Source of the DNA: a virus
IMG/VR virus record: IMGVR_UViG_3300009537_000002
Location: 23,821 to 87,820 of that record
Reading direction: 5' to 3' (one strand)
Length of the DNA: 64,000 bases
Below, in pieces: positions 42,865 through 57,040 of the stretch. Made by a program: the position numbers and the translations under genes. Position 1 is the first letter of the stretch. Each line of letters opens with the position of its first letter. The notes beneath the pieces were generated by a model that saw nothing but the letters and a program-made list of their open reading frames with translations, ran no database searches and was not told the DNA's origin.

Positions 42865-43449
42865 TTATCCTGTGGGACCGTTGAGGAACTTAACTTGCTC
42901 CTCATAGCAATCCAGCTTCCAATATTCGAGTTTACCATTATCTGCACGGAAATCAATTGCAGTTCCAATACGGTAGATGGTCTGCCTCTCGTAGGGCCTG
43001 ATGGGCTTACCAGCTTGGTCAGTCATCAGTTCGACCATCTTATCCGGTGAGACTTGTTTTGGGAAGACATTGAGTGGGAGATCATGCTCAAAGAAGAAGG
43101 AAACAAAAGTGATATTCGTTAAACCAGGTGGAATCAGGGACTCTTTGGTCGACAAGCCAACAGAGCTCCGGATCACTTGCTTGTACCCATCCACTAGGAT
43201 CTCATCCCAGACATAGCGTTCACCAAAGCAGACAGGACAGAACGTATCCTTGTCAGGTTCACCGGTAAGTACATCAACACAACTGCACTCAACTAGCTTG
43301 CCAGCATCATCGGTCCTCATCTTACGAAGAACGAGGGTCTGCTTCTTGGCAATCTCTGGATAGACTCCCTGGAGGGTGTTGGTCATCTCTTCCCTCATAT
43401 CAGGCTCTGTTCTCAGAGCTGCTCCATATGGATTGAAGGGACGAGCCAT
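42865..43449 (-). CDS. Head closure / neck protein with CxC...CxxC zinc motif
   Basis: CSC...CPVCFG near the N-terminus; position in the neck cluster. Confidence 0.6.
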   Translation of the reverse strand: MARPFNPYGAALRTEPDMREEMTNTLQGVYPEIAKKQTLVLRKMRTDDAGKLVECSCVDVLTGEPDKDTFCPVCFGERYVWDEILVDGYKQVIRSSVGLSTKESLIPPGLTNITFVSFFFEHDLPLNVFPKQVSPDKMVELMTDQAGKPIRPYERQTIYRIGTAIDFRADNGKLEYWKLDCYEEQVKFLNGPTG

Positions 43450-44453
43450 TACCAGTATTTCCTCCCTGTACGGTTTCTCGAAAAGCGACTGACATAGGTT
43501 TTCTTCTGTCGACGGGTGCGTGGGTCATCGGTGGTAGTGTTAGCGGCCGGGACCCTGCGTGACAAATGCCCATCCTCTGTAGACTGCCAGGATCTAGAGA
43601 TGAGAGGACGATCTACGTCCTTCTCTCCTTTCACCACTCCTCGTGGTTGAGAAGCAGCTCGGGCGCCGCCTCCGGCAATCAGCTGCGGTTCCCACTTGTC
43701 CATGCAATCTAGTAGACGAGCCATAGCATCGCGGACACCATTGGTGTCATATTCTACGTGCAAATCGGCCAGGGTCTTAGTACGAAGCAGTAGATTACCA
43801 ACATTGGTCAATAGCATACCCGAGGCAGAACAGGTGACATATTCACGACGAGCATGCAGGAACAATCCACTGTTCGTCCTCTGAGGAGCAAATACAAGAA
43901 CATCGGCCTCGAGACTGGCCTCGAGAATGCCAAGCTGAAGAATGTCATCAGGCAGTTGGTTTACAAATGCCCCTACCTCCAATCGCACTTTACGGGTATT
44001 AGTATAGGAAGGAATCGTTGTAGTCAGAAACTCGAGATTGAATTCATCTTCTAGATTGGTACCATCAGTAGCTTGGAGGCCTGACGTGACAGTGACCTGT
44101 ACGATATCATTACAGAACAGCTGACAGTCTAGAGGTTGGGTGATACCGGACGTTGTGACATCAAAAGTGTTGATGCCAGTGATGGTTTGGCAAGCAAGTT
44201 GAGCTTCCCAGGAGTCGATCCATGTTCCATCAGGACCACAATCGGGAGTATCGAATTCGTATTCGAAGATACCTTGACCCAGAAAAGTAGGAACACCAGA
44301 GACAGTAAATGCTTCGTCGAGATCTAGGAAGTCCTTGCCTGGTTCAAATAAGTGTACGAAGACACCACTGGCCTGAGCTGTTTCACCGAGGTCATCTTTG
44401 ACAAGAATTCTGAGCCGAATTGTATCTCCAGCCCTAACGCTTCTGTTTCCCAC
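43449..44453 (-). CDS. Head-tail adaptor with N-terminal Ig-like region
   Basis: Ig-like N-terminus, then VTVTSGLQATDG...FLTT, then a helical adaptor-like region (SYTNTRKVRLEVG...REYVTC). Confidence 0.55.
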   Translation of the reverse strand: MGNRSVRAGDTIRLRILVKDDLGETAQASGVFVHLFEPGKDFLDLDEAFTVSGVPTFLGQGIFEYEFDTPDCGPDGTWIDSWEAQLACQTITGINTFDVTTSGITQPLDCQLFCNDIVQVTVTSGLQATDGTNLEDEFNLEFLTTTIPSYTNTRKVRLEVGAFVNQLPDDILQLGILEASLEADVLVFAPQRTNSGLFLHARREYVTCSASGMLLTNVGNLLLRTKTLADLHVEYDTNGVRDAMARLLDCMDKWEPQLIAGGGARAASQPRGVVKGEKDVDRPLISRSWQSTEDGHLSRRVPAANTTTDDPRTRRQKKTYVSRFSRNRTGRKYW

Positions 44454-44474
44454 TAGCTTGCCTCCACGATTCGA

Positions 44475-47400
44475 TTATACAGTATGCAGGTTCTTCCATC
44501 CAGACGCCGAATAGCCCTGGAAGATACCGCTGCTGGTATTGTAGATCATCATACCTTCGATATTTGGCAACAAGTCTCGTTCTGCTTCTGTCATCCTTGG
44601 AAGCAGGAGCCCACCGTGTTGTTCGTTCACTTCGAGGGCAACACCAGATACAGTAGTTGGGGTGCCGATACCAACCCTACCCTGCTCATATGTGATGTCA
44701 ATCCCACTAGTCTCCCACGGAGTCTCCTTGAAGTCTACACCACTAACTTGCAACTGATTGGTGTTTACGACCTCAAGTGTGGCTGTTCCTGTAACATCCA
44801 TATCCCCGTTGACGGTTGTATCATCGTCAAGGTCCCAGCCATTAGCACTGGTGCTCAAGGTTCTACTACCCAAATGGATACTGCTACCCGTCAGATAGAG
44901 TTCACGCCACCTATCAGATGGACTACCCAAATCAAAGGTGTCAGTAGAAACTGGCTCCAAACCACTAGTAGTTACCTTGGCAATCCAGCTGCTATTAACA
45001 CCAAATTGAAGTTCAGCGCCCGAGCCTCGAGCTTCAACTCTGGATAGACCAGCATTGGTGACATGCATAGCTAGACCGTCTGTGTCAGTGGCACTAAACG
45101 TGTCGTTGCCGAGAATCATACTATAGAGATCAGCATTGTCAGAGGTGACCTTCACCACCATGCTGTTGCCCGTACCACCGTCTTCTACTTCTAGTCTTGC
45201 AACAGGGTCAACTGTGCTAATACCAATGTCGCCATCAGATCTAATTATCATCCTCTCGGTTCTGCCAGAAGAAGATGTTGCGGTTAGAAATCGCATCTCG
45301 GCAGGAACCTCAGTTCCTGGAGTGCCGTCTGTCACCATTTCAATAGATGCTGCACCACGCTCAACATTTGATGTATTGTATCCACTGCAAATCCATGAAC
45401 CGAGTTGATCATTATCGCTTACGGTTGTTGGAGACGTTACAGTCCCGCGTCCTCGAACCGACTTGATCACTGGCCTAGTTGATGCAGTAGTAGAAGCACC
45501 AAAAACCTTTATTGCATCCAACAGATTGTTTTCAACAATATCTAACTTAGTTACAGGGGCGTTTGCGCCTGGGTCAGTGCTGAGCGTTAGAGAATCAAAA
45601 TAACCTTCGCCATACTTGTTAACCCAGAACGCATCAGCAAGTGTCGCACCGGTCATTAGCTTGAAAGCTTTCCAGCTCCTATCGTCGCTTGTAGTGGAGT
45701 CATCAAATGGAAACAATGACAAATAATGCCCGTTTACATCAGCGCTATCTAAGAAATTATTAGCAACACTAGCAACAAATCCCGACCTGCTCGAAGTGGT
45801 TTCCACATAAACACCAAGGCGATAGCTCTGTCCGCCAATAGCTGTTGTTCCAACAGCACCTGGAACAACATGAAGATGTGCATCTGGATCTGTTTCGTTA
45901 ATTCCTACGAAACCACTAGAATCGATTACTGCTCTTTGTATACGAGCACCGGATGTACCTGCTGTATGGAATTGCAGTTCACCAGGAGCTGTAGTTCCCG
46001 GTGTCCCATCTACCTGTGCTTCAATAGACGCAGAAGGTGGAGCATCGGTCGCATTGATAAAGCCACTGAAAATGATTCCGCCAATGGGATCACCATCAGT
46101 CACAGCAAGCCGAGAGGCCAAGGTTCCTCTCGAACGAAGCACAGACATAACAGGTCGAGCACCAACGGTGTTTGATGCACTGGTCATCAAAAATGCATCT
46201 GGTGTATCCTCAACGGCGACACTCAGCTTATTAGTAAGCGTAGTGAGACCAATACCAACGAGTCCTTCTACTAACAGACCATCCGTAGGTGCGGTCTCTG
46301 TACCAGCATAGGATGACCCAATAGCTGAATTGCCCTCAATATCCAAGGTGTTAGTAGCAAGCACATTAGAGCCAATGCCAATGTTCCCACTAGAATCACG
46401 AATAACAAAACGATGTGCTGTACCGTCATAGATAGTAAAGTGTCCACCACCAAGACTTGAGGCACTACCGGACGTCATAAGGGAAAATTCTTTAACTGAA
46501 TCTGTGTTATTAATGGCAAATTGAGTAGAGCCGGTATCAGACGAAAGTACCCTCGCCATCAAAGCCACGGTACCTTGCACATCAAGGACCCGGCCAGGGG
46601 CAGCAATTCCAATGCCTAGCCGGTCATTAACTTCATCGTATGCACTGGTCTGTGTAGCACCAAAAAAGACACTGCCTTTGGTGGCATGCGCAGTAGACAC
46701 TAGGGTTAGGTCTTCTCCGCTGGCTGTTCCACCATTAGCCGTTTGCCCTCCAGATCGTCCCGCAAGAAGGAGATACTGTGTGTGGTCATCATCACCTAAG
46801 CCAGCGATAAGACCATGATCAATGGATGCAACCGTAAAGTGAATTGAACCATCAGCTATATGGGTATCGATCGCCGCATGAGAGTTTGTGCCAATGTTCA
46901 GGATGTTTGCATGGTCTATAGATGCCTCTGTGAAGTGAATCGAACTATCGGCAATATGACTGTCGATTGCAGCATGTGAGTTAGTTCCGATATTCTGAAT
47001 GGCAGTATGATCGATTGAAGCTTCGGTAAAGTGAATGGAAGAATCTGCGACGTGTGTATCTAATGTGCTACCATCGGCAGAGACATCGCGGCCATCTACA
47101 TTACCCACATTTGTGATTGCGAAGGCTCCCATGTCCAGATTGCCGGTCATGGCTCGAGAACCATCTCGAGGAAGCAGAAGAACACCATTAATCGTTATTG
47201 CGTCTGGAGAACCATCGGTGCCAGTAGTAGAAATTCCATTGATACCAGCAAGAGAAAGAGTTTCTTCAGCCGCGACGGCCGTGACAGATCCTATATCCGC
47301 TGTGATAGTCTTATAGCTATCTCCTCCACCTCCGCCAGCGCCAGGAATCGTGATTGTAGCTTGTCCGCCAACGCCAGTGACTGTAACACCAGCACCTATG

Positions 47401-47528
47401 AAGTCTAGAACAGTGAAAGGTCCACCGGATACAGGGATACCTTCATCCTCAATGGAAGTGATGCCCCCTGAGGTAACCCTAAGGATTTTGTGCATCTCTA
47501 TGTGTTCTTGGATTCTTCGCGTGGACAT
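44475..47528 (-). CDS. Long fibre protein (head or neck fibre) with His-rich repeats
   Basis: 1017 aa. About six GI(G/N/S)xxxP/LxxxLxV fibre repeats, three 32-aa His repeats, C-terminal GLLLPRMT...MIYNT...W module. Confidence 0.7.
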   Translation of the reverse strand: MSTRRIQEHIEMHKILRVTSGGITSIEDEGIPVSGGPFTVLDFIGAGVTVTGVGGQATITIPGAGGGGGDSYKTITADIGSVTAVAAEETLSLAGINGISTTGTDGSPDAITINGVLLLPRDGSRAMTGNLDMGAFAITNVGNVDGRDVSADGSTLDTHVADSSIHFTEASIDHTAIQNIGTNSHAAIDSHIADSSIHFTEASIDHANILNIGTNSHAAIDTHIADGSIHFTVASIDHGLIAGLGDDDHTQYLLLAGRSGGQTANGGTASGEDLTLVSTAHATKGSVFFGATQTSAYDEVNDRLGIGIAAPGRVLDVQGTVALMARVLSSDTGSTQFAINNTDSVKEFSLMTSGSASSLGGGHFTIYDGTAHRFVIRDSSGNIGIGSNVLATNTLDIEGNSAIGSSYAGTETAPTDGLLVEGLVGIGLTTLTNKLSVAVEDTPDAFLMTSASNTVGARPVMSVLRSRGTLASRLAVTDGDPIGGIIFSGFINATDAPPSASIEAQVDGTPGTTAPGELQFHTAGTSGARIQRAVIDSSGFVGINETDPDAHLHVVPGAVGTTAIGGQSYRLGVYVETTSSRSGFVASVANNFLDSADVNGHYLSLFPFDDSTTSDDRSWKAFKLMTGATLADAFWVNKYGEGYFDSLTLSTDPGANAPVTKLDIVENNLLDAIKVFGASTTASTRPVIKSVRGRGTVTSPTTVSDNDQLGSWICSGYNTSNVERGAASIEMVTDGTPGTEVPAEMRFLTATSSSGRTERMIIRSDGDIGISTVDPVARLEVEDGGTGNSMVVKVTSDNADLYSMILGNDTFSATDTDGLAMHVTNAGLSRVEARGSGAELQFGVNSSWIAKVTTSGLEPVSTDTFDLGSPSDRWRELYLTGSSIHLGSRTLSTSANGWDLDDDTTVNGDMDVTGTATLEVVNTNQLQVSGVDFKETPWETSGIDITYEQGRVGIGTPTTVSGVALEVNEQHGGLLLPRMTEAERDLLPNIEGMMIYNTSSGIFQGYSASGWKNLHTV
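46800..47060 (-). repeat. Three degenerate 96-nt tandem repeats (HxADxSIHFTxASIDH...)
   Basis: gtgaat recurs at 46839, 46935 and 47031, exactly 96 nt apart. Confidence 0.9.
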
Positions 47529-47574
47529 GGGGCAATTCTAGCAGTGAATGGCTCTGTCTGGAAGTCTCACCAGT

Positions 47575-47895
47575 TTATTCCCCAAATTTCACACCAGCTA
47601 TATCATCCCAAATCGCACTCACACTTGAGTCGATCGTGGCATCTAGAATGGTACTGGGATCAGCAACTTCTCCAATCTGACTTGCACTTGTCTTTATGAA
47701 TGCAACGATTTTACCATTGTCACCATTTAACACAGAAACACCTAGGTTGTGACGTTTGTTCGCTTTAAGCTCACTGAATCCAGCAGTTTGCCAATCTTCG
47801 CCGACGATACTAACTGCCGCTTTGAGCACTGCTGCCTCAACGCGCTTCCTATAGTTACCATCTAGGATTGTGTCTGCTATTTGTTGAAGACTCAT
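47575..47895 (-). CDS. Small hypothetical protein (possibly fibre-associated)
   Basis: 106 aa ORF with AGGAGG upstream. Confidence 0.55.
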   Translation of the reverse strand: MSLQQIADTILDGNYRKRVEAAVLKAAVSIVGEDWQTAGFSELKANKRHNLGVSVLNGDNGKIVAFIKTSASQIGEVADPSTILDATIDSSVSAIWDDIAGVKFGE

Positions 47896-47913
47896 ATCTC
47901 TCCTCCTGTAGAG

Positions 47914-48561
47914 TTAACTTATTACAAAAACCCGACGGGTCACGGCCGCCTTATTTACGTCGATGTCGGCGTTGCGCGTGTACGTGTCCATGCCTGAAAT
48001 CCTGAGGAGGATCTCGTCGCCGTCGCTCACGTCCGCGTTTACGATTTGAAAGTTCAAAACGGGCTCGTACTCGTTGTTAGCGTCGAGAATGTTCGTGTCG
48101 GCGCTTCCGTCGGTGCTCTGCCCGGAGTTTGTCGTGTCGTAGGTACCGGATCCGATACGTTGGGTCGTGTCGTTTCCCTGGGTCAGTTGCCCATCGACGG
48201 CGATGATCACACTACTGGTCGTCTCGACCATTGTCCACCCACCCCCAGCGTGGTTGTATTCCCAATCCTCATTCTTAACTGTCCCCGAGCTGCCGTTGGT
48301 CTCCTGAATCAGCAAGCGACACTGATAGGTCGTGTCTGTGTCAAGCGTTTGCTGATTGTTGACGCTGCCGATGATCGTTGAAGTCGCCTCCCCGGCATCG
48401 TCCTCGTAGAAGGCGTAGGAGTCCTGATCGAAAGCAGCCATCGCTCCAGCAAGAGCAAGCGGACCGTCGTACCAGTAACCTTCGCGCTTCACGACGCGCC
48501 CCTGCGCATCGTACAGGACGAGCGTATTGATCCAGCGTCGGCTCACGTCTTGCGCTCCCAC
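47914..48561 (-). CDS. Putative virion appendage protein with leader-like N-terminus
   Basis: 215 aa, GC-rich codon usage, acidic beta-rich body; start codon uncertain (GTG). Confidence 0.5.
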   Translation of the reverse strand: MGAQDVSRRWINTLVLYDAQGRVVKREGYWYDGPLALAGAMAAFDQDSYAFYEDDAGEATSTIIGSVNNQQTLDTDTTYQCRLLIQETNGSSGTVKNEDWEYNHAGGGWTMVETTSSVIIAVDGQLTQGNDTTQRIGSGTYDTTNSGQSTDGSADTNILDANNEYEPVLNFQIVNADVSDGDEILLRISGMDTYTRNADIDVNKAAVTRRVFVIS

Positions 48562-48887
48562 CGCCTGCGGTAGTCACGCACGCGCTCGCGCACGACTTCG
48601 AACTCAACGTTCGGGATCCACAGACCCGACTTACACAGACCCTCGGCGCGCAGCACCGTGGACAGATCGTCGGTGCCTATCGGCTCGCCGTTCCTCATCA
48701 CCGAGTAGTAGTCTGAGCCGTTGAGAACCTGGAGTTTGCCGTCGTCCCGATGCTTCACCACGAACTGCAACCCGTCGCGAGGCGCGTCTCGCCAGACACG
48801 CGGGATCTTAAATGTGACCTCGATGTCCTCGCCATCATCCTCGATAACCGAACCGTCCCCATAGAACATGATGAAGCGCGGGGGCAT
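48543..48887 (-). CDS. Hypothetical protein
   Basis: 114 aa, TGATG overlap with the upstream gene. Confidence 0.5.
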   Translation of the reverse strand: MPPRFIMFYGDGSVIEDDGEDIEVTFKIPRVWRDAPRDGLQFVVKHRDDGKLQVLNGSDYYSVMRNGEPIGTDDLSTVLRAEGLCKSGLWIPNVEFEVVRERVRDYRRRWERKT

Positions 48888-49408
48888 CAGGTGAACTTCC
48901 GGATATTCGCCATGAGATCAGAAGAACTCGCCTGGTTGGTCTCACCAAAGGCGACGCGCTTGATCTTGTTGCCGTTGTTGACCGCCGACTGGACGTTCTT
49001 CAGATCGATCTGTATCGCGTAGGTCGACGTGTTGTCTGGATTGGTGGTCCATGCTGTATCGACCGTCACCCGCTTCGTGCTCTCGACGTAGTCGGTGATC
49101 GTCCGCTCCTGGCCTTCCCCCGTGCCACCGGTGATGCGGATCTCGTGGTCGTTGTAGTAGTCGTCGGGCTGTGTGTCGCCCGGCGCCAGATCAATCGTGG
49201 TCGCAGCGCCAGCTTGGGCCGTGCCGCTCGCCGACGTACGGCCGAGAACAATAGCGACTTCCGTCAGCGTGCGCCCGTTGACGAACCCGTCCCAGTCGAC
49301 TTTCTGCTCGGATAAGTCAGTCAATGCCTCACGGAGACGTCGCCCGAGGCGACCAACCTCCAAGGCCCAATCGTCAAAACTTTTGTCTCCGTCATATTTC
49401 GGTGCCAT
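48887..49408 (-). CDS. Putative structural protein with an SGTAQAG...GTGEGQxRxIxDY beta-module
   Basis: 173 aa with GGAGG RBS; the module recalls repeats seen in environmental phage appendage proteins. Confidence 0.5.
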   Translation of the reverse strand: MAPKYDGDKSFDDWALEVGRLGRRLREALTDLSEQKVDWDGFVNGRTLTEVAIVLGRTSASGTAQAGAATTIDLAPGDTQPDDYYNDHEIRITGGTGEGQERTITDYVESTKRVTVDTAWTTNPDNTSTYAIQIDLKNVQSAVNNGNKIKRVAFGETNQASSSDLMANIRKFT

Positions 49409-49409
49409 G

Positions 49410-51437
49410 TTAATCCTCCGTGTAAACTATGGTGATTGCCAACTCATCTACTGTACCAGTTTGCGCCGTGGTTTCAAGCCATACAAACGAGTCAAAGACG
49501 ATGGTCGCATCGTCAAAACTAGTCACGTCCGATCCGGTACTTTGATCCGTGGTGGTCGTACCGCCTGTAACTACTTCCGCTCCGGTTGCCGATCTACTCG
49601 TACCGTGCCGGATCGTCCAGGTCACACTCGGCGTGCTGCCTCGGACCACGGCCCGTATTTCTGTGATTGTGATCGCTAGGTTAGTAAAGAAGATCGAGAT
49701 GTCTTCGGTGGCAGTAGGATCTTCGATCGTAATCGACTTGCTCAAAGTCGGGGCGGCGCCAGCACCGCCAAACATCCTATTCGTGATAGTACCACTCGTC
49801 GCTTGGAAGTAGTTACCACCATCGGCGTTGACAGTGCTCCCGGCCGAATTGTCTAAGGTCCCCTCTACGCGAACGCCTCGGAAGTTAGCGACTCCCGCCG
49901 CACCAGCCGTGACGAAATCACCAGGAGCATTGGCGCCGCTCAGAATCTCAGAGCTGACCATTTCCAGAGTGCCTGCGTTAGACACCCGCGAGAAGGGGAT
50001 GATCGCGCCGGAGCTGATGAGACTCCCCGTGTCGTCGCAAATAAACCGTGAGTTGAAAACTCGCGAGTTGTCCCCAAGACTAGCCGCTGTCATATTCGAC
50101 GCAGCACCTGCCCCAGTGTCTGTGGAGCCTCGACAGAAGACGTTTTCCAGATACCAGCGCGACGCCCCGCCGTCGATCCCGGTGCCCGTGCCCGTCGATC
50201 CCGTCCAGGTGAAATCCACGTCCAGGTCGATCAGCGAGATAGTAGTCGCCGCGCCAGTGCGGCCCACTGCCGCACCGGTCGCGCTGATTCCCGGGTTGAT
50301 ACGAGTCCGAGGCGCCCCGTTAGCCCCGCGGTTCGCCGCTGTCCCAATAATCTGGAGGTTTTTGTCAATCGTGATCTGCTCAGCGAAGTCGATGGGGCCG
50401 AGCAACAGCGTGTCGCCCGCGGTAGCAGCAGTGATCGCCGCCGCGATGGTGGTGAAGTCCGCTCGGGGATCGGTCGGATGCACGGTATGGACCGTGCCTG
50501 TAAAATCAGGTCCAAGAATGCCGACCGTTGAGCCGTTCAGTCGTGATTTCAGATGAGGGGCGGTCGTGCGCGCCCACAACATCCCGTCCGCGAGTGTACT
50601 TGGGTCGGCTGACAGTGAGCGTAGAGGGAGCTTGTATGTATCTTGCTGTCCGTTCGAAAGCAACTTACCATAACCAACTTGCTGGAAGACGGTCTCGGTA
50701 TCATCGTCATTGATCCCACTTACAGTCGGGATCCAATTGTCACCCCAAACTTCCACATCATTGGCATTTGTGATCGTCAGACCTGATGTACCCAAGCGAC
50801 AATTTGAGATCCACAGGTTTCCGTTGGTGTTGTCGATACGCACACCAGCAGTGACTGTGCCACGGCACGTCGTGTAGTTTATATGGTTTTGAGAGCTACT
50901 GACTCCCTCGATTTGCAGCCCAACCGAGGCATCGGCCTCGATGCCCGCATCGGTCGCGGTGATCGAGCAGTTGTTCGAGATGATAGCGCCGGTGGTGATC
51001 TGTACACCGTAGAGATTTCCCCCCGATGCACCGCTGGTTGAAGAAGAAAGAATGCTGTTGACCGTGTAGAGGTTGCCACCCCCAGTGACCTTCACGACTG
51101 CAATATCACCCGCACTACCATTCCAAGTTAAATTGAAATCAATGTTCTCGATGAACGATGCACCCGCCGAAGCATAGGTCCAGATCGCCCCGCCGCTGGC
51201 ACCTCCGATCGTGCGGTTGAAGATGACCTCGGGATTGCCCGAACCCGTGGTCACCCCGCGGTAAGTGACTCCCGCCACCATCGTGATCTGATCTGTGTAC
51301 GTCCCCGGGTAGATATCGATGGTGTCACCGGACACAACGTCCGCATTGGCATCCGTGAGGTTGTCGTACTGCGCGTTGCCGTCCGTCGATACAGTTAGGA
51401 CCTTCGGCACCACGATCTGGCGCATTGGCACCGGCAT
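49410..51437 (-). CDS. Tailspike-like protein with two parallel beta-helix (pectin-lyase-like) domains
   Basis: Two beta-helix cap motifs: YDNLTDANADVVSGDTIDIYPGTY and FTTIAAAITAATAGDTLLLGP. Confidence 0.65.
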   Translation of the reverse strand: MPVPMRQIVVPKVLTVSTDGNAQYDNLTDANADVVSGDTIDIYPGTYTDQITMVAGVTYRGVTTGSGNPEVIFNRTIGGASGGAIWTYASAGASFIENIDFNLTWNGSAGDIAVVKVTGGGNLYTVNSILSSSTSGASGGNLYGVQITTGAIISNNCSITATDAGIEADASVGLQIEGVSSSQNHINYTTCRGTVTAGVRIDNTNGNLWISNCRLGTSGLTITNANDVEVWGDNWIPTVSGINDDDTETVFQQVGYGKLLSNGQQDTYKLPLRSLSADPSTLADGMLWARTTAPHLKSRLNGSTVGILGPDFTGTVHTVHPTDPRADFTTIAAAITAATAGDTLLLGPIDFAEQITIDKNLQIIGTAANRGANGAPRTRINPGISATGAAVGRTGAATTISLIDLDVDFTWTGSTGTGTGIDGGASRWYLENVFCRGSTDTGAGAASNMTAASLGDNSRVFNSRFICDDTGSLISSGAIIPFSRVSNAGTLEMVSSEILSGANAPGDFVTAGAAGVANFRGVRVEGTLDNSAGSTVNADGGNYFQATSGTITNRMFGGAGAAPTLSKSITIEDPTATEDISIFFTNLAITITEIRAVVRGSTPSVTWTIRHGTSRSATGAEVVTGGTTTTDQSTGSDVTSFDDATIVFDSFVWLETTAQTGTVDELAITIVYTED

Positions 51438-51440
51438 GCT

Positions 51441-53282
51441 TTAGCTCACATACACCGCGTCGAGGGTATCGCTCGTCTTCATGTTGACCGCGGTCCCGCT
51501 AGACGCGAGCCACGTGATCGTAATCCCGCTGATTGTGTAATCGGCACCCGCACCCTGACGCTGAAGTACCCCGTTGAGAAAGAGTCTCACCCAGGCATTG
51601 TTTTTCGGGGTAGCGTTCAGCGTGTCCGTTAGCGCCGTGTCGGTGTTGGTAATATTCTCGGTCGTGACCGACTCTTGCTGCGCGGTCTCTGCTGTAGCTG
51701 CAGTTTCGATGTTGTCGAGTTTAGTCTTGTCGGCACCAGTCATGAAACCATCAGCGCCGCCGGCAACAACATCAGCGTGAAGATCACCACCTCCACGGTT
51801 ACTATGCATTGTATCGTTCTGAAGAGCAACAAACGTAATTGTGTCGGCTTGCACTGTAATTGCAGCATTAGCAGAAGCAACGTCAATGTCATTTCCGTTG
51901 AGAACAAGACCAGCACCAGCTCCACGTGGTGAACCCGAGCCAATCTGTGCAAATGTCAGCCCATCTGTACCGACAACATCAGAACCAGCATTGTTAGTAC
52001 ACTGGAACAACTTGTCACCATCAGAGGTACCTTCTTCAATGTGAACAATCCAGCCCCGAGCTTCGGCACCTGTAGGAGCATCACCTGTACGTGTCCATGC
52101 ACCAGCAGCTGTAGTGTAGATGCCATCTTCGGTAGCTGTAGTTTGTTGATCAACTAAGATGCGATCTGTAGATGTAAGTACACCATCAATTGTCTGTTCA
52201 CCGCTTAATGTCAAGTCACCTTGGGCCCGAACACGTACCGACTCTTTTGCGTCGATGCCGGCCGCGTCTTGAAGGGTATCGAGTTTGGTTTTATCTGCGG
52301 GAGACATAAAACCTGCCACACCAGTAGTAGCAGCAGAGTGAAGTGACCCACCACCACGGTTGCCGTGCAGTGTGTCGTCGATTTCAGTGATACCAACAAG
52401 AGCGGTGCCAGATCGCTGAACGAGTTGACCATCTGCAATGGAGCCGACTGTCAAATCAGCAGGACCACTGGTCGTTCGAATTGTATGATCATGGTCTGAT
52501 CGAGCAAAACTTGTTGCTGAACCTTCAGCATTGCTACCACCAATACCTTGACCAGGAGCCGCAGCTACAATTGAGTGACTGTGATCGGATCTGGCTAGAC
52601 TAGAGGCAACACCTTCGGCTGCAGCATCATCGGGTTCAATAGCACCTGGAGTGCCAGTAGATACTGCGTGTTGGTGATCCCTTCGAGAAAATCCTGTACC
52701 CGAGCCCTCAACAGCAGCATCACCAGCATTGACTGTAGAGATAGCACCATCCGTTGTGTCAAACGAGTGACTATGGTCAGACCTAGCGAGTGATGTTGCT
52801 GTTCCTTCGGCGGCGGATGAGTCTGCATTCTGTGCAGAAGCAGCAGCTGTAGTTATGGCATCAGCTCCACCTGGATCGTGTCGCGTCCCGTGAGCTGCTG
52901 GATCAATGTTTGCTCTACTGGCAATCTGGAAGACCAGGGCTGTTGTGTCGAGTGTGATCGGGGCGTTTGTGGTGAGTTGCCAAGTAGTATCGGCACCTGC
53001 TGTACCTTCAGAAACTGACACCAATACACCAGAGATCACATCGGCAGTTTCATCAAAGTCGGTTGATCGGCTCCATGCGCCCGCAGCGGCAACATAGATA
53101 CCATTTTGAGAGCCGGTGGATTGAGCCTTAACCAGGACACGGTCACCAGCTACCGGAGTAATACCATCACGGGCAGCGAGACCACTCAACGTGTCATTGA
53201 CCGTGGTAGACAAACGACACGGATCTCTAGTGGCATCCGTAGAGACGTCTGCATCAAGTTGTTTTCTGCGAATCAAAGGCAT
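51441..53282 (-). CDS. Fibre/decoration protein with internally duplicated domains and HxH repeats
   Basis: Two TLSGxxxxDG...D(R)xLV..Q....GIY..AAGAWxR domains; four RxDHxH motifs; two GFMxxADKTKLD motifs. Confidence 0.7.
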   Translation of the reverse strand: MPLIRRKQLDADVSTDATRDPCRLSTTVNDTLSGLAARDGITPVAGDRVLVKAQSTGSQNGIYVAAAGAWSRSTDFDETADVISGVLVSVSEGTAGADTTWQLTTNAPITLDTTALVFQIASRANIDPAAHGTRHDPGGADAITTAAASAQNADSSAAEGTATSLARSDHSHSFDTTDGAISTVNAGDAAVEGSGTGFSRRDHQHAVSTGTPGAIEPDDAAAEGVASSLARSDHSHSIVAAAPGQGIGGSNAEGSATSFARSDHDHTIRTTSGPADLTVGSIADGQLVQRSGTALVGITEIDDTLHGNRGGGSLHSAATTGVAGFMSPADKTKLDTLQDAAGIDAKESVRVRAQGDLTLSGEQTIDGVLTSTDRILVDQQTTATEDGIYTTAAGAWTRTGDAPTGAEARGWIVHIEEGTSDGDKLFQCTNNAGSDVVGTDGLTFAQIGSGSPRGAGAGLVLNGNDIDVASANAAITVQADTITFVALQNDTMHSNRGGGDLHADVVAGGADGFMTGADKTKLDNIETAATAETAQQESVTTENITNTDTALTDTLNATPKNNAWVRLFLNGVLQRQGAGADYTISGITITWLASSGTAVNMKTSDTLDAVYVS

Positions 53283-53297
53283 CGCAATGCCCTCCCG

Positions 53298-54143
53298 TTA
53301 TTTGTATTTTGCCAACAGTTTATCACCAGAATCAAGGACGAACAAGTTGTTCAGCCATGTCAAAGTGGTACCAGATATAGTGTAATCTGTTGTATCGTCT
53401 GCTGTTACTCCATTGATTTTAACCGACAACGAGTTTATGTCTAGTGGAGCCTGACTCAGGAAAAAGGTTACCTGAGCGGGTGTTGGAGTAAACTCGTCTT
53501 CTATCCACAAGGGACCCAGCTGGTCATCAATACCAGCTAGATGAGCAGTCAAGTGATCCACATCTGTCACTTCAGCAGGCGCTGTACTAGGTGTGTAGAA
53601 ATTAGGACTAAAATCAACTCCCAGTTGGTCTCCATCAATTTCATCTGATCCATTCAAGATATGTGAAGGCGCGTGAGTATCAGGAGCACCAGCGCTTCCG
53701 GGCACCCATTCAGTTCCATCAAACTCGAGATGTTCCCCAGAAACAGGAGGTGTGGTAGTTAGGTCTACATCGGTAAGATCATCAAGAGAGACGACCCCTC
53801 CAGCGGTGGTTAGGTTCCACCCACCCCCACCGTCTGTCTCTAGTCTAAGACCTGAGGCCGTTGGCCCCGAACCAAGATCTTGTGCAAGTAGTTCGTCAAC
53901 TCCACCTTGTTCGTGAGTAAATGCGTGAGGATCAGCAAGACCACTTGCTGTTGTTACTTGTCCCCATAAAACAGGGGAATTATCCAGTAAAATCCAAAAA
54001 GTGCTGTTGTCTAACTGCAAAGCACCCTTACCAATGTCGCTGGGCTCAAGACCACTTGCGGTAGTTCTGGCCGTTATATCAGGATATTCAAAGTTGTGAA
54101 TCGGATGCTGTTCACCTAAAGGTGAATTCTTGTGAAACCCCAC
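53298..54143 (-). CDS. Fibre-like structural protein
   Basis: AAGGAGG RBS; HxxxH motifs and LDDLTDV; C-terminal NGV...DYTISGTTLTW domain homologous to the C-terminus of 51441..53282. Confidence 0.6.
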   Translation of the reverse strand: MGFHKNSPLGEQHPIHNFEYPDITARTTASGLEPSDIGKGALQLDNSTFWILLDNSPVLWGQVTTASGLADPHAFTHEQGGVDELLAQDLGSGPTASGLRLETDGGGGWNLTTAGGVVSLDDLTDVDLTTTPPVSGEHLEFDGTEWVPGSAGAPDTHAPSHILNGSDEIDGDQLGVDFSPNFYTPSTAPAEVTDVDHLTAHLAGIDDQLGPLWIEDEFTPTPAQVTFFLSQAPLDINSLSVKINGVTADDTTDYTISGTTLTWLNNLFVLDSGDKLLAKYK

Positions 54144-54554
54144 TTAGAAGTCCTCCTTAACTGACTTTGGTAACGGCGTCATAAATAAGTGTACACTACC
54201 TGAACAACTTGTATAGATTCTCCCTTCCGTGTCGAGCACCAACTGATTCAGATCCACAATGTCGTCTGTTAGATCTTGTTCGAGTTGGTAATCAGCTGCG
54301 TAGTCTGTTGGAGCAGCAACACCAACACCGTCTTTGGACCATTCTAACACAGCATTACGGATTAGGGTCAGCAAGTCGATAGAGTCTCTGAGGTCACGTG
54401 CTGTGAACTGACCGAAGTTGCTGTTACCTCCTGGACTGGACTCAGATAACAGGGTCCAACTTGCATCGGTAGCAATCGTGATGCCCAAGTCTGGGACAAG
54501 AACATCTATGTTCGCACCACCATTGCCAGTACGAACATACAGTAGTCCAGCCAT
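54144..54554 (-). CDS. Hypothetical virion protein
   Basis: 136 aa with AAGGAGG RBS. Confidence 0.5.
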   Translation of the reverse strand: MAGLLYVRTGNGGANIDVLVPDLGITIATDASWTLLSESSPGGNSNFGQFTARDLRDSIDLLTLIRNAVLEWSKDGVGVAAPTDYAADYQLEQDLTDDIVDLNQLVLDTEGRIYTSCSGSVHLFMTPLPKSVKEDF

Positions 54555-54565
54555 TGTGCTCCTCC

Positions 54566-55075
54566 TTACGGTATAGTTAGAGAGTCATTCCTCCATGCAA
54601 TTTCTATCCATACCAGTGGATCTCTAACATCGCCATTTGCATATAACTGAATTCTATCTCCTTCATCTACGTCCACGTCAGTAGTTCTAACGTGATCTCC
54701 CGTTGTGCCTGCAATGGCCAAAGAAGCAATAGCAGACAATGCTCCGTTCTTTCGAACTTCTAGCGTCCAAGTGGCAGCCAAACGCGTTTGCGCAACGATA
54801 CCCACTATAGTTCCATCTCGAGGAAGTCTCCAACCAGTCAGATTCAATGTTTGACCATCAAAGACGGGAAGATATTTATCTTTACTTTTACCAGACTCCC
54901 CACCACCAGGCTTGAACCTGTCGATGGACAACCACTTGCTACGAGAAGTATCGTATAGCCACAATATATTATCATCAACGAGAATATCGCCACCAATAGT
55001 AATATTATGCGACTCTAAGACAATCTCATGTTCAATGATATGCTGCTTGAGACTTTCAGAAGTAACTGCGCTCAT
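54566..55075 (-). CDS. Hypothetical virion protein
   Basis: 169 aa with TAATG overlap; beta-rich C-terminus. Confidence 0.5.
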   Translation of the reverse strand: MSAVTSESLKQHIIEHEIVLESHNITIGGDILVDDNILWLYDTSRSKWLSIDRFKPGGGESGKSKDKYLPVFDGQTLNLTGWRLPRDGTIVGIVAQTRLAATWTLEVRKNGALSAIASLAIAGTTGDHVRTTDVDVDEGDRIQLYANGDVRDPLVWIEIAWRNDSLTIP

Positions 55076-55479
55076 TAGATTGTGTCTCCCACCTTGGCAA
55101 CTTTATCTTCAAAGCTGATTACTACATCGTTTTCATCTGGCCCGGCGGCAGCCCACGTGGCAACAAAAAAGTCTCCACTGTCAATAGTGATCGAATCATA
55201 GTCACCAACCATCTGAATATCAGCAACAGTTCTGCTACCGGTATCAAGATGCAACAATGTGCGAGAAATATTAATGTTATCAACAGAACGATGAAACCCT
55301 ACTGGACCGGTGGTTAGTTGTTGTACATTAACGGTAACTTCGAAAGAGTCCAGACCCAACACCTTCTTCTGTTGATTCTTATAAATGCGCACTCCAGACC
55401 CTAATCTCCTGGTAGCCTGATGTGTACCACCAAGCAAATTGCGTTGGCCCGGGCCGCCCGGAAGAACCTTTTGCGCCAT
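55075..55479 (-). CDS. Hypothetical virion protein
   Basis: 134 aa with AAGGAGG RBS. Confidence 0.5.
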   Translation of the reverse strand: MAQKVLPGGPGQRNLLGGTHQATRRLGSGVRIYKNQQKKVLGLDSFEVTVNVQQLTTGPVGFHRSVDNINISRTLLHLDTGSRTVADIQMVGDYDSITIDSGDFFVATWAAAGPDENDVVISFEDKVAKVGDTI

Positions 55480-55489
55480 GACTGCCTCC

Positions 55490-56242
55490 TTAGATTTTGA
55501 TCTTCAGCCTGTTTCCCTCTACCTCCGTCGAAATGGCTATGTCACCCAAGGATCTAGTCTGAGCATTAGGATGGTCAGTTGCAGGGACAGTTTTCACCTG
55601 AACATTTGCGGCCACTGATGTCGCATCAATTGGCTTGTTGAAGTCTAGCGTAATTTCACGTAGGTCAACAGGGTTTTGTACAGAATGATCACCAGGAGTA
55701 GCAGTTGTTACCACAAATGGCGTGGCTGCGGCGCTGACTCCTACTGAGGCAGCTTCGGTAACCGCGGCACTCAACACGGAAGTAGAAACGTCAGATGGCA
55801 GCTCTTCGATGGAGCCTGTGCCTGTGGTAAAGCCGAAGGTTACAAAGCCATCGATATCATCGCCACCTGCATCAAGAATACTAGTGAGGTTGACTTTGTA
55901 CTCCGTTAGAGGAGTCATTGGTAGGTCAGGGTCAAAGGTGACTACTGTGTCACCCATGATCCCCGACACGGTAACGCTACCCTTTACGATACCAGCATAG
56001 CCAGCAGACTGGAGAAAGTCGTCAAAATCTCCCTGAGAGATGTTCTGGGGAGATGTGAGGCCAAGCTGGCCCGGGCCAACAAACTGATCTGTATCAGGTC
56101 CTTCAAGGAACATGCCTTCCGTAAGACTGTCGCTATCATAGTCTAGACCTGAGAGTGTGATCGTCAGGTTAGATTGGAGAGGGACGCCTACGTTGCCGTT
56201 CGCAGGAAAGGTATCTTTGATGAGATCAGATAGTGCTGACAT
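55490..56242 (-). CDS. Ig-like (SbsA/Big_5-type) protein: one complete and one C-terminally truncated domain
   Basis: FPANGNVGVP...VTFDPDLPMTPLTEYKVNL...FGFTTG, then TPGDHSV...ITLDFNKPID...VEGNRLKIKI followed by stop. Confidence 0.7.
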   Translation of the reverse strand: MSALSDLIKDTFPANGNVGVPLQSNLTITLSGLDYDSDSLTEGMFLEGPDTDQFVGPGQLGLTSPQNISQGDFDDFLQSAGYAGIVKGSVTVSGIMGDTVVTFDPDLPMTPLTEYKVNLTSILDAGGDDIDGFVTFGFTTGTGSIEELPSDVSTSVLSAAVTEAASVGVSAAATPFVVTTATPGDHSVQNPVDLREITLDFNKPIDATSVAANVQVKTVPATDHPNAQTRSLGDIAISTEVEGNRLKIKI

Positions 56243-56246
56243 TCAA

Positions 56247-56855
56247 CTATGCTCCAGTTTTGAGTTCGTTGAGCACTTCCATTGGAACCAGGACTTGCTC
56301 TTCCTCCGATTCTACTATATCTGAGAGCTGTGTCGATAGTGTGTCCACTTGTACAGCATCAACAGGCTGCATGTCCTCTGTGCCTTTAGCCTGGACAACC
56401 TCGGCCCTGTGGGCACTGAGGCGCTTTTGGAAGAATTCAATAAGTTTCTTCCTGTTCTTCCCTTCTTGCTCGAGCTCCAAAAGACGTCGTAGACTTCCCA
56501 GTCGCAACGTGGCCGCTTCCTTCTTCACGGATGGAATTGTACCCTTCAATATTCCTCTGAGAATCTTGACTGTCTTGTCAATGGTATCTTCCATGTTCTG
56601 AGCAACATCAGTTGGCCTGATAGGAATGACATTTGCAGGCATGGGTGTATCTGGAGTCTCCACATCCAAAAGTTTCTGGATGTCTTCTTTGTTCTCCAGC
56701 TTCAACACACTTCGACGGATGTTGTAGACAAACTGCTTCTTGAGCTCATCATTGAGTTCTTCTACTGCTACGTTGTGTTCCGGGGTCCCAAACGTGAAAC
56801 TGTAGGGACCAATAGTTAAAAATGGGGACTTGTCGGTATTGAGTTCAACTTTCAT
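56247..56855 (-). CDS. Post-capsid protein with LLELEQEGKNRKKLI helical motif (possible packaging or head-completion factor)
   Basis: True start is probably MKVELNT at 56855 with AGGAG RBS; the ORF-track extension upstream is HNH debris. Confidence 0.55.
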   Translation of the reverse strand: MKVELNTDKSPFLTIGPYSFTFGTPEHNVAVEELNDELKKQFVYNIRRSVLKLENKEDIQKLLDVETPDTPMPANVIPIRPTDVAQNMEDTIDKTVKILRGILKGTIPSVKKEAATLRLGSLRRLLELEQEGKNRKKLIEFFQKRLSAHRAEVVQAKGTEDMQPVDAVQVDTLSTQLSDIVESEEEQVLVPMEVLNELKTGA

Positions 56856-56879
56856 AACATCTCCTAGTATACATTTGTT

Positions 56880-57040
56880 GGTGGACAAAAAGAAGGGCTG
56901 ACCCTCCCAGTCCTTGTTGATCTGAGTCTTCAGTCTGTGGCAGTTTGCACATAGAACCTGGAGGTTCTCAGGCCGATTGTTCTTATGATTCCCGTCAATG
57001 TCCCGGGATTGACGTGACAATATTTACATACGGGTCTCAT
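56880..57040 (-). pseudogene. Internally deleted HNH endonuclease remnant
   Basis: ATG at 57040 reads MRPVCKYCHVNP; a different frame reads DIDGNHKNNRPENLQVLCANCHRLKT; the junction is at CCCGGG. Confidence 0.75.
56886..56907 (-). terminator. Intrinsic terminator-like hairpin (second copy)
   Basis: GGAGGG-UCAG-CCCUUC-UUUUU. Confidence 0.55.

What the first reader, a model, noticed from the sequence alone, without database searches (positions are those of the whole stretch)
43449..56242. Complementary halves of one Ig-like domain lie in two genes 11 kb apart
Seen: 55490..56242 stops mid-domain at ...STEVEGNRLKIKI. The adaptor gene contains exactly the missing strands, LFCNDIVQVTVTSGLQATDGTNLEDEFNLEFLTT (~44015-44123), which match the end of the complete first domain (LTEYKVNLTSILDAGGDDIDGFVTFGFTT). 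Inference: an ancestral Ig-Ig-adaptor gene was split by insertion of the 44.5-55.5 kb fibre cassette. The halves may still reassemble in trans to dock the Ig protein on the neck.
Basis: inference. Interest (0 to 1): 0.6.

Follow-up and report, generated by a model that had tools for sequence, protein, structure and literature searches.

The report
Split Ig domain joining neck proteins
In this uncultured large contractile-tailed phage, one immunoglobulin-like domain is divided between a small Ig protein and the head-to-tail adaptor 11 kb away. Relatives make the same parts as one fused protein, so the halves most likely snap together on the neck, and the cut site is where related phages insert fibre genes.

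Summary

- **Ig protein (55490-56242, minus strand).** It has one complete Big_5 domain and a second that stops at profile position 47-48 of 105.
- **Adaptor (43449-44453).** It is a macroglobulin-like Ig domain, a short linker, a 40-residue beta segment ("HALF", residues 108-147) and an HK97-gp6/Mu-type adaptor domain.
- **Fused relatives.** These are single ORFs of 452-480 and 568-620 aa, several checked on DNA. In them the Ig protein and HALF-plus-adaptor are collinear, and Big_5 matches the whole profile across the junction.
- **Conservation of the cut.** 135 of 136 split Ig proteins end exactly at the same strand. Neither half is less conserved than in fused forms.
- **Cassette not needed for the split.** Split relatives have gaps from 9 nt to 11 kb, so the 11-kb cassette did not have to cause the split. 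The split site is a variable fibre-gene slot.
- **Repeated interconversion.** Split and fused forms are interleaved on the adaptor tree (one clade rejected, p-AU 4.7e-6).
- **Not tested.** Reassembly in trans is inferred (about 0.65).

Solved precedent: Tuc2009 BppU-BppA. This scan has noted similar split Ig joints in the fibres of other phages.

The parts
55490..56242 (-). Ig protein gene (250 aa): complete Big_5-like domain D1, a linker, and the N-terminal part of a second Big_5 domain (D2N). The protein ends at the last residue of a beta strand.
   Evidence: ORF. Pfam Big_5 E 6e-12. 117 aligned homologues of 242-265 aa all end ...G(N/K)xLKIKI.
55817..56221 (-). D1, residues 8-142: a complete Ig-like (Big_5 / SbsC / CopC-like) domain.
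   Evidence: AF2 pLDDT above 90 apart from a low-confidence loop at about residues 51-80. VIA Z 9.2-11.4 to LdtMt2 BIg, CopC and SbsC domains over model residues 3-143.
55493..55726 (-). D2N, residues 173-250: the first ~48 of 105 Big_5 profile positions (strands up to the one before the last hairpin). Stop codon at 55490-55492.
   Evidence: Pfam profile 2-47/48 of 105. AF2 strands at 178-182, 196-201, 238-242 and 245-249, pLDDT about 80-90. 135 of 136 split Ig proteins end exactly at this profile's last position.
44475..55479 (-). Eleven-gene fibre/appendage cassette lying in the split site (134, 169, 136, 281, 613, 675, 173, 114, 215, 106 and 1017 aa).
   Evidence: ORFs. In relatives the same slot holds between 0 and ~10 kb of partly different genes. 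The 48-52 kb stretch is 56-58% GC against 47-50% around it. Only one weak, sub-threshold Pfam hit in any of the seven cassette proteins scanned: DUF4183 in the 613-aa protein.
44148..44453 (-). Adaptor residues 1-102: a complete macroglobulin (MG2)-like Ig domain, absent from fused forms. Its last strand aligns with the last D2N strand of fused forms.
   Evidence: AF2 pLDDT above 90. VIA Z 9.3-10.4 to MG domains over residues 1-100/103. Pfam MG2 below threshold in 75 of 120 homologues. No profile similarity to D1 or D2N. Strand overlap shown.
44133..44147 (-). Short linker, adaptor residues 103-107.
   Evidence: AF2 pLDDT below 50 at residues 105-109. The linker is 5 residues in 133 of 183 split adaptors.
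44013..44132 (-). HALF, adaptor residues 108-147: the C-terminal strands of the Big_5 domain (the motif ...NDIVQVTVTSGLQATDG...FNLEFLTT).
   Evidence: Collinear with D2N in fused forms, where Big_5 matches through to position 105. Pfam Big_5 positions 60-105 or 73-105 only, in adaptors P0274, P0287 and P0329 (E 0.011-0.05). 14 of 120 homologues give weak Big_5 hits. AF2 strands 117-122 and 138-143, pLDDT 86-93. Belongs to neither flanking fold.
43449..44012 (-). Adaptor residues 148-334: helical head-to-tail adaptor domain plus a basic C-terminal tail (stop at 43449-43451).
   Evidence: VIA over residues 148-264: phage 812 neck 8q01_b Z 9.3, P74-26 neck 9oab Z 9.0, Mu neck subunit 5ydn Z 8.8, HK97 gp6 3jvo Z 8.1. 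Weak Pfam DUF4054 in 32 of 120 homologues. Gene order adaptor-g194-g237-sheath-tube is conserved in 36 loci.

Best explanation
**What it is.** The Ig protein and the neck adaptor are the two products of a gene that other members of this phage group still have in one piece (Ig domain, Ig domain, adaptor).

**Where the cut falls.** It falls inside the second Big_5 domain:
- The Ig protein keeps the first strands, probably one sheet plus one strand (inferred).
- The adaptor keeps the last hairpin (HALF), directly before its portal-binding adaptor domain.

**How it most likely works (inferred).** In the virion, the twelve adaptor subunits (the usual copy number for this kind of adaptor; not tested here) each use HALF as a plug. 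The plug completes the open second domain of one Ig protein. The Ig arm is then held on the neck non-covalently, in the place where it is covalently attached in fused relatives.

**What the split allows.**
- It frees the adaptor's N-terminus. Here it carries a macroglobulin-like domain; in other relatives it carries a different small beta domain or nothing.
- It creates an intergenic gap that relatives fill with between 0 and 11 kb of fibre genes.

**Shown:** homology of the halves, existence of fused forms, conservation of the cut, a variable slot, and repeated interconversion.

**Inferred:** physical reassembly, the stoichiometry, and any role of the cassette fibres at the neck.
For: 1. Fused single ORFs are collinear with Ig protein + HALF + adaptor, and Big_5 matches the full profile across the junction.
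2. Fused P0280 (609 aa) aligns without a gap to the split Ig protein of L021 over residues 1-363 (64% identity). It aligns to the L021 adaptor over residues 357-604 (63%).
3. 135 of 136 split Ig proteins end at the very same profile position, with an alternating hydrophobic strand pattern.
4. At matched divergence of the neighbouring domain, HALF is as conserved in split as in fused forms (0.34-0.50 against 0.36-0.50). D2N is at least as conserved (0.34-0.50 against 0.26-0.41).
5. Every split-type record with enough upstream DNA has a truncated Ig gene: 20 relatives plus the window.
6. HALF is part of neither the MG2-like fold (1-102) nor the adaptor fold (148-264), and sits on a low-confidence linker.
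7. Split and fused forms are interleaved on the adaptor tree. One clade of split forms is rejected (p-AU 4.7e-6), so lineages switch state and remain viable.
8. Weak extra co-divergence of D2N with HALF: partial Mantel r 0.17, p 0.017. The D1-HALF control gives r 0.09, p 0.13.
9. Solved precedent: a BppU hairpin completes a beta sheet of BppA domain 2, giving a composite titin-like Ig domain in phage Tuc2009 (PMC4742702).
Against: - No complex was predicted or measured.
- AF2 gives both halves fairly high confidence as monomers (D2N about 80-90, HALF 86-93). Independent folding, or packing of HALF on another part of the adaptor, is therefore not excluded, and model coordinates could not be inspected.
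- HALF alone gives no Pfam hit.
- The Ig gene lies beside the capsid genes, which would also fit a head decoration role.
- The conservation comparison uses sequences picked by profiles built from split forms, which favours conserved members.
- The co-divergence signal is weak and could reflect genetic linkage.
Confidence: 0.65

Rival explanations
1. Relic halves with new, separate jobs. After the fission the Ig protein became, for example, a capsid decoration or a free accessory protein whose shortened second domain folds or binds elsewhere. HALF survives only as a spacer between the new N-terminal domain and the adaptor domain. There is no contact between the two.
For: - The Ig gene sits two genes downstream of the major capsid protein gene.
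- AF2 models both parts with pLDDT of 80 or more as monomers.
- No binding was tested.
Against: - Neither half shows relaxed constraint relative to fused forms.
- The exact C-terminal end is kept in 135 of 136 proteins.
- The two co-occur in 21 of 21 records.
- Lineages move between fused and split states, which is hard to reconcile with the two states placing the Ig arm in different parts of the virion.
Confidence: 0.2
2. Each half is completed by a different partner. HALF pairs with the last hairpin of its own MG2-like domain or with the adaptor core. D2N is completed by a cassette protein, for example the conserved 134/169/136-aa trio.
For: - The last strand of the MG2-like domain resembles the last D2N strand and lies 5 residues from HALF.
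- g134, g169 and g136 follow the Ig gene in several relatives.
Against: - Split relatives with no cassette at all (L004, L013, L014, L034, L035) keep both halves.
- Adaptors that start directly at HALF with no MG2-like domain exist (L030/L031).
- The MG2-like domain is a complete macroglobulin fold by itself over residues 1-102.
Confidence: 0.1
3. Artefact or dead gene: a sequencing or assembly error, or a recent pseudogenising break with the halves decaying. Or the products are rejoined by recoding or protein splicing.
For: None found beyond the bare fact of a truncated domain.
Against: - More than 115 homologues of each protein, down to 41-44% identity, keep the same lengths.
- Both genes have clean stops and ribosome-binding sites.
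- Eleven genes lie between the halves.
- Pfam finds no intein (Hint) domain in either protein.
- The reading frames of adjacent split pairs are not consistently aligned.
Confidence: 0.02

Closest known systems
Lactococcus phage Tuc2009 baseplate tripod: the BppU C-terminal beta-hairpin completing BppA domain 2 (Legrand et al. 2016, PMC4742702)
   Same: A hairpin from one virion protein completes a beta sheet of a partial sandwich in another. The result is a composite titin-like Ig domain that holds an accessory carbohydrate-binding arm on the particle.
   Different: It is in the baseplate of a siphophage, not the neck of a myophage. No sequence relationship was tested. No fused form or cassette slot is reported there. 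The Tuc2009 joint is solved, whereas ours is inferred.
Donor-strand complementation/exchange in chaperone-usher pili (Fim, Pap, Caf1); established knowledge
   Same: An Ig-like fold that is incomplete in one polypeptide is finished by strands from another, giving a very stable non-covalent joint.
   Different: In pili one G strand is missing and is given by the next subunit's N-terminal extension, with a chaperone step. Here about half the domain (the last hairpin, ~40 residues) is on the partner, no chaperone is evident, and the joint is one-to-one, not a polymer.
Head-to-tail adaptors of the HK97 gp6 / Mu neck subunit / SPP1 gp15 kind (PDB 3jvo, 5ydn; phage 812 neck 8q01)
   Same: Adaptor residues 148-264 share the fold (Z 8.1-9.3). 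The gene sits between the head genes and the sheath.
   Different: Those matched chains are shorter (96-259 residues). Whether any of them has N-terminal domains was not checked. This family carries either a covalent Ig-Ig arm, or an MG2-like domain plus a half Ig domain.
Engineered split Ig-like domains (SpyTag/SpyCatcher from the CnaB2 domain); own knowledge, not checked here
   Same: They show that an Ig-like domain cut between strands can reassemble spontaneously from two chains.
   Different: They are artificial, and locked by an isopeptide bond. Nothing suggests a covalent bond here.
Other split Ig-domain joints noted by this scan in phage fibre and tail proteins (e1-5350557, e1-5785433, e1-5642067, e1-5366526, e1-5884633)
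   Same: An Ig-like domain is cut at a loop between two genes. Fused forms occur in some relatives, and free ends carry exchangeable modules.
   Different: Those are in fibres or tail proteins of unrelated phages. This one attaches an Ig arm to the neck adaptor and has a well-sampled fused/split polymorphism. The notes are unchecked AI notes and I did not test them.

Membership tests
Pfam Big_5 (PF13205) bacterial Ig-like domain, for the second domain | Match above the gathering score covering the whole ~105-position profile within one chain | tested here: not met
   In the window the match stops at profile position 47/48, and the adaptor segment alone gives no hit. In fused homologues the same region matches positions 2-5 to 105 (E 4e-13 to 8e-24). 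The domain is therefore Big_5, but here it is spread over two chains.
Pfam Big_5 (PF13205), for domain 1 of the Ig protein | Profile match above the gathering score, and an Ig-like fold | tested here: met
   Whole-protein score 46.6 bits against a cut-off of 23.6, from two matched stretches. The score of the D1 stretch alone was not listed. VIA Z 9.2-11.4 to BIg, CopC and SbsC domains over residues 3-143.
Head-to-tail adaptor (HK97 gp6 / Mu neck subunit / DUF4054-like) | Helical adaptor fold | tested here: met
   Model residues 148-264: 8q01_b Z 9.3, 9oab_Ea Z 9.0, 5ydn Z 8.8, 3jvo Z 8.1. These Z values are middling for the method, but five different phage neck proteins cover the whole domain.
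Head-to-tail adaptor (HK97 gp6 / Mu neck subunit / DUF4054-like) | Sequence-family membership (Pfam DUF4054 or Phage_connect_1 above threshold) | tested here: inconclusive
   No hit for the window protein. Sub-threshold DUF4054 in 32 of 120 homologues (best E 0.0016) and Phage_connect_1 in 1. A profile search of PDB sequences found nothing significant.
Head-to-tail adaptor (HK97 gp6 / Mu neck subunit / DUF4054-like) | Gene position between head genes and tail-completion/sheath genes | tested here: met
   The order adaptor, g194, g237, sheath, tube is kept in the window and in 36 loci.
Macroglobulin MG2-like domain (PF01835), adaptor residues 1-102 | Profile match above the gathering score | tested here: not met
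   18.9 bits against a cut-off of 32.8. It is sub-threshold in 75 of 120 homologues. The fold is clearly MG-like (Z 9.3-10.4 over residues 1-103), so this is a resemblance of fold only.
Strand/hairpin complementation joints (Tuc2009 BppU-BppA type; pilus donor-strand complementation) | Incomplete Ig-like fold in one chain, with the missing strands on a partner chain | tested here: met
   Shown by the truncated Big_5 match and the collinear fused homologues.
Strand/hairpin complementation joints (Tuc2009 BppU-BppA type; pilus donor-strand complementation) | Physical completion of the fold in trans | not testable with these tools
There is only indirect support.
Fractured gene rejoined by a split intein | Intein (Hint) N- and C-terminal motifs at the broken ends | tested here: not met
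   Pfam finds no intein domain in either protein. The Ig protein ends in a beta strand and the adaptor begins with a complete MG-like domain.

The most novel reading that the evidence does not exclude
The half Ig domain on the adaptor is a natural plug-and-socket joint that phages of this group switch on and off. Fused and split states interconvert repeatedly. The split lets the neck carry a branched set of appendages: the docked Ig arm plus whatever is fused to the freed N-terminus. It also turns the cut into a landing site where fibre-gene cassettes of 0-11 kb are exchanged. A domain cut would then serve as a device for evolvability of the virion surface. The strand that both the Ig C-terminus and the last strand of the MG2-like domain resemble may give a simple deletion route back to the fused gene.
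Probability: 0.5. Interest if true: 0.75.

Novelty: new variant of a known kind. Interest (0 to 1): 0.62.

Why it matters
- **A testable case of gene fission inside a domain.** It gives a clean natural example of a gene cut inside a folded domain where both states, fused and split, are sampled many times in one phage group. Whether a cut Ig domain reassembles in trans can be tested directly with matched natural controls.
- **Neck appendages.** If the halves reassemble, it shows how a phage neck can gain branched appendages without changing the adaptor core. It would also explain why a fibre-gene cassette sits between head and neck genes.
- **A wider principle.** Together with the solved Tuc2009 joint and similar unchecked notes from this scan, it points to split Ig domains as a general building principle of phage appendages.
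- **Practical use.** The HALF/D2N pair could also serve as a small natural protein-protein connector.

Tried and rejected
- **Recoding at the Ig gene's stop.** I translated all three frames downstream and found no Ig-like continuation.
- **Phage records.** tblastn of both proteins against 50,697 phage records found no match. Only the capsid protein finds distant cultured relatives: 0305phi8-36, KLEB27-3, ME3 and MTATph1 at 32-38%.
- **HALF alone.** The Pfam scan gave nothing. Profile-profile comparisons of D2N and HALF with D1 were weak, although in the right register (P 0.004 and 0.011).
- **Is the MG2-like domain a diverged D2N?** hhalign showed no similarity (P 0.34).
Gene contexts came from IMG/VR loci instead.
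- **Metagenome scan for the short HALF-adaptor form.** It returned only one 1.5-kb contig of the ordinary split type. The partner Ig gene of the short form was therefore not seen, because L030 and L031 end 120-200 nt upstream of the adaptor.
- **Foldseek on the whole adaptor model** was dominated by generic Ig hits. The VIA wide search resolved the two flanking domains.
- **VIA on the Ig model** listed only domain 1 (apart from one poor whole-model alignment), so the shape of D2N alone was not compared with solved folds.
- **PDB sequence search with the adaptor profile** found nothing.
- **Two literature searches** for a split Ig domain at a phage neck found nothing relevant.
- **Stop-codon read-through in adjacent split pairs.** L004 has both ORFs in one frame, 9 nt apart. 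L013 is in another frame, and L014 and L034 have further stops.
- **Residue-level covariation between the halves** was not attempted. About 34 split pairs and 31 fused forms are too few.
Full report
**1. What is in the window**

All genes of the region lie on the minus strand. In the direction of transcription the order is:
- a 766-aa gene and a 403-aa gene of unassigned function at the head end
- the major capsid protein (415 aa; 32-38% identical to those of Bacillus phage 0305phi8-36, KLEB27-3, Acinetobacter ME3 and Moorella MTATph1)
- a 257-aa gene
- the Ig protein (55490-56242, 250 aa)
- eleven genes of 106-1017 aa with fibre-like repeats (44475-55479)
- the adaptor (43449-44453, 334 aa)
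- g194 and g237 (phrog_20284, virion structural protein)
- the sheath and the tube

The window is positions 23821-87820 of a 103,635-bp virus record.

**2.

- The Ig protein ends ...EVEGNRLKIKI. It is followed by TAA, GGAGG and the next ATG, and no frame continues the domain.
- Pfam Big_5 hits it twice. The second match covers only profile positions 2-47/48 of 105.
- The AF2 model (117-sequence alignment) has a confident domain 1, a floppy linker and a second part with only four or five strands. Domain 1 is a complete Ig fold (Z up to 11.4).
- The adaptor model has a complete macroglobulin-like domain (residues 1-102, Z 9.3-10.4).
- After that come a low-confidence linker and two confident strands (117-122 and 138-143).
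- It ends in a helical domain (148-264) that matches the neck proteins of phage 812, P74-26, Mu and HK97 gp6 (Z 8.1-9.3).
- The 40-residue segment 108-147 ("HALF") belongs to neither flanking fold.

**3. The predicted fused relatives exist**

A profile search of 1.84 billion representative proteins with the adaptor alignment found 602 relatives. Besides the 310-370-aa split type, there are proteins of 452-480 and 568-620 aa whose adaptor match starts at profile position ~92-112.
- P0251 and P0256 are 45% and 39% identical to the window's Ig protein over their first ~250 residues, and continue straight into HALF and the adaptor.
- Pfam Big_5 then covers the whole profile across the junction in five fused proteins.
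- With sub-profiles for D1, D2N, the MG2-like domain, HALF and the adaptor domain, the fused forms read D1-D2N-HALF-adaptor. There are 0 residues (16 of 30; range -2 to +6) between the end of D2N and the start of HALF.
- On DNA, L019 (477 aa) and L023-L029, L032 and L036 (582-592 aa) are uninterrupted ORFs. They sit between the capsid genes and g194, with no cassette.

**4. The cut is conserved**

- More than 115 homologues of each protein, down to 41-44% identity, keep the same length.
- 135 of 136 split Ig proteins end exactly at the last D2N profile position, in a hydrophobic-polar alternating strand.
- Every split-type record with enough upstream sequence has the truncated Ig gene: 16 loci, 4 whole records and the window.
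- At matched divergence of the neighbouring domain, HALF and D2N are no less conserved in split than in fused forms. One caveat: members were selected with profiles built from split forms.
- D2N and HALF co-diverge slightly more than the backbone explains (partial Mantel r 0.17, p 0.017; control r 0.09, p 0.13). This is weak, and linkage could account for it.

**5. The cassette did not have to cause the split**

The distance from the Ig stop to the adaptor start varies widely:

| Locus or record | Gap |
|---|---|
| L004 | 9 nt |
| L013, L035 | ~20 nt |
| L014 | 51 nt |
| L034 | 60 nt |
| L015 | 0.9 kb |
| L008, L009 | 1.6 kb |
| L010 | 2.1 kb |
| L007 | 2.7 kb |
| L016 | 3.9 kb |
| L002, L003, L017, L018, L021 | 5.9-6.9 kb |
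| G004 | ~8.2 kb |
| L006 | 8.9 kb |
| G002, G003 | ~10.3 kb |
| this window | 11.0 kb |

- The content differs between relatives. A 134/169/136-aa trio recurs, while the fibre genes vary.
- In the window, 48-52 kb is 56-58% GC against 47-50% around it.
- The cut is therefore a variable slot for appendage genes.

**6. Anatomy of the split**

Fused P0280 (609 aa) was compared with the split pair of L021, which has a 6.9-kb cassette.
- P0280 residues 1-363 align without a gap to the 363-aa Ig protein (64% identity).
- P0280 residues 357-604 align to adaptor residues 113-357 (63%).
- The seven residues 357-363, the last D2N strand, thus match both the Ig C-terminus and the last strand of the MG2-like domain. 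The same overlap appears in P0259 against P0280 and in the consensus (the shared ...V.ASG... motif).
- The stretch is short, so homology of that strand is suggestive only.
- The rest of the MG2-like domain is unrelated to D1 or D2N.

Other adaptors have something different before HALF:
- Some have a different small beta domain (P0266, P0274, P0287). In P0274, P0287 and P0329, Pfam Big_5 hits only profile positions 60-105 or 73-105.
- Some have nothing at all. L030 and L031 (230 aa) start four residues before the conserved NN of HALF and are preceded by an unrelated gene.

**7. History**

- On a tree of the adaptor domain alone, split and fused forms are interleaved. FastTree (137 rows) needs 22 changes of the split label, at least 7 of them forced by well-supported branches.
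- IQ-TREE (72 rows) needs 11 changes, at least 3 forced.
- Holding the split forms together costs 252 log-likelihood units (p-AU 4.7e-6).
- Fused P0280 is 77% identical in the adaptor domain to split P0259. It is 69% identical in the Ig part to the split Ig protein of L021. By contrast, split forms differ from one another down to 16-25%.
- Because Big_5 is a common single-chain domain, the contiguous state must be original.
- The interleaving then means either transfer of the stop-to-MG2 module by recombination, or repeated loss of it, or both. Loss could occur by deletion between the two look-alike strands. This step is inference.

**8. Mechanism**

The most economical reading is that HALF on each adaptor subunit completes the open second domain of one Ig protein. 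The Ig arm would then sit on the neck as it does in fused relatives. The adaptor's freed N-terminus carries a further domain, and the gap carries fibre genes. I put this at about 0.65.

It was not tested. Rivals are separate new roles for the halves (0.2), other partners (0.1) and artefact (0.02).

**9. What is known**

- A solved precedent is phage Tuc2009. There a BppU hairpin completes a sheet of BppA domain 2 to give a composite titin-like domain (PMC4742702).
- Pilus donor-strand complementation is the classical analogue.
- This scan has several unchecked notes of split Ig domains in the fibres of other phages.
- I found no report of such a joint at a neck adaptor, nor of a fused/split polymorphism with a cassette slot.
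- I therefore class it as a new variant of a known kind.

Noticed in passing
window 56247-57020 (minus strand), N-terminal ~45 residues: The 257-aa ORF after the capsid gene begins, from a TTG, with the tail of an HNH endonuclease motif. Pfam HNH gives E 0.0024 and several PHROG HNH families also hit, all on residues 4-44. The conserved protein proper seems to start at an internal Met (MKVELNT...).
   Followed up: partly
window 48000-52000: GC content is 56-58% here, against 47-50% in the rest of the window. The stretch covers the 675-aa gene and the start of the 613-aa gene, together with the 173, 114 and 215-aa genes inside the cassette. This suggests that part of the cassette was acquired recently from another source.
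   Followed up: no
L030:1-130 and L031:1-210: Two independent IMG/VR contigs with the short HALF-adaptor form both end 120-200 nt upstream of the adaptor start. Their upstream sequences diverge just before a shared gene end (...IKNLQLLVE). Assemblies seem to break at the variable slot.
   Followed up: partly
L004:9227-10963: The Ig and adaptor ORFs lie in the same reading frame and are separated only by the stop codon and 9 nt. Read-through would give a covalent Ig-MG2-HALF-adaptor protein. This is not conserved in L013, L014 or L034.
   Followed up: partly
L002, L003, L006, L017, L018 cassettes; window 54566-55075: The 169-aa cassette gene has a second, diverged copy (34-45% identical to the window's gene) about 1 kb further on in several relatives. 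The 134/169/136-aa trio directly after the Ig gene is the most conserved part of the slot. Its function is unknown, with no significant Pfam or PHROG hit.
   Followed up: no
window 44475-47528 and 51441-53282: The 1017-aa protein has three tandem copies of a ~30-residue motif (...SIHFTEASIDH...IGTNSHAAID.HIAD...). The 613-aa protein repeats a ...AEG.A.S.ARSDHSH... motif four to five times. These are fibre-like repeats with no Pfam family.
   Followed up: no
L010, L015, L017, L018, L021; records G003-G005: Some split Ig proteins are 338-376 aa long because domain 1 carries a ~110-residue inserted beta domain, the same as in the 568-620-aa fused forms. All four combinations of domain-1 type (short or long) and state (split or fused) therefore exist.
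   Followed up: partly
most of loci L001-L036, about 0.4-0.7 kb downstream of the tube gene (2.1 kb in L004): A second, diverged tube-like gene (25-35% identical to the tube protein) follows the tube gene in most relatives.
   Followed up: no
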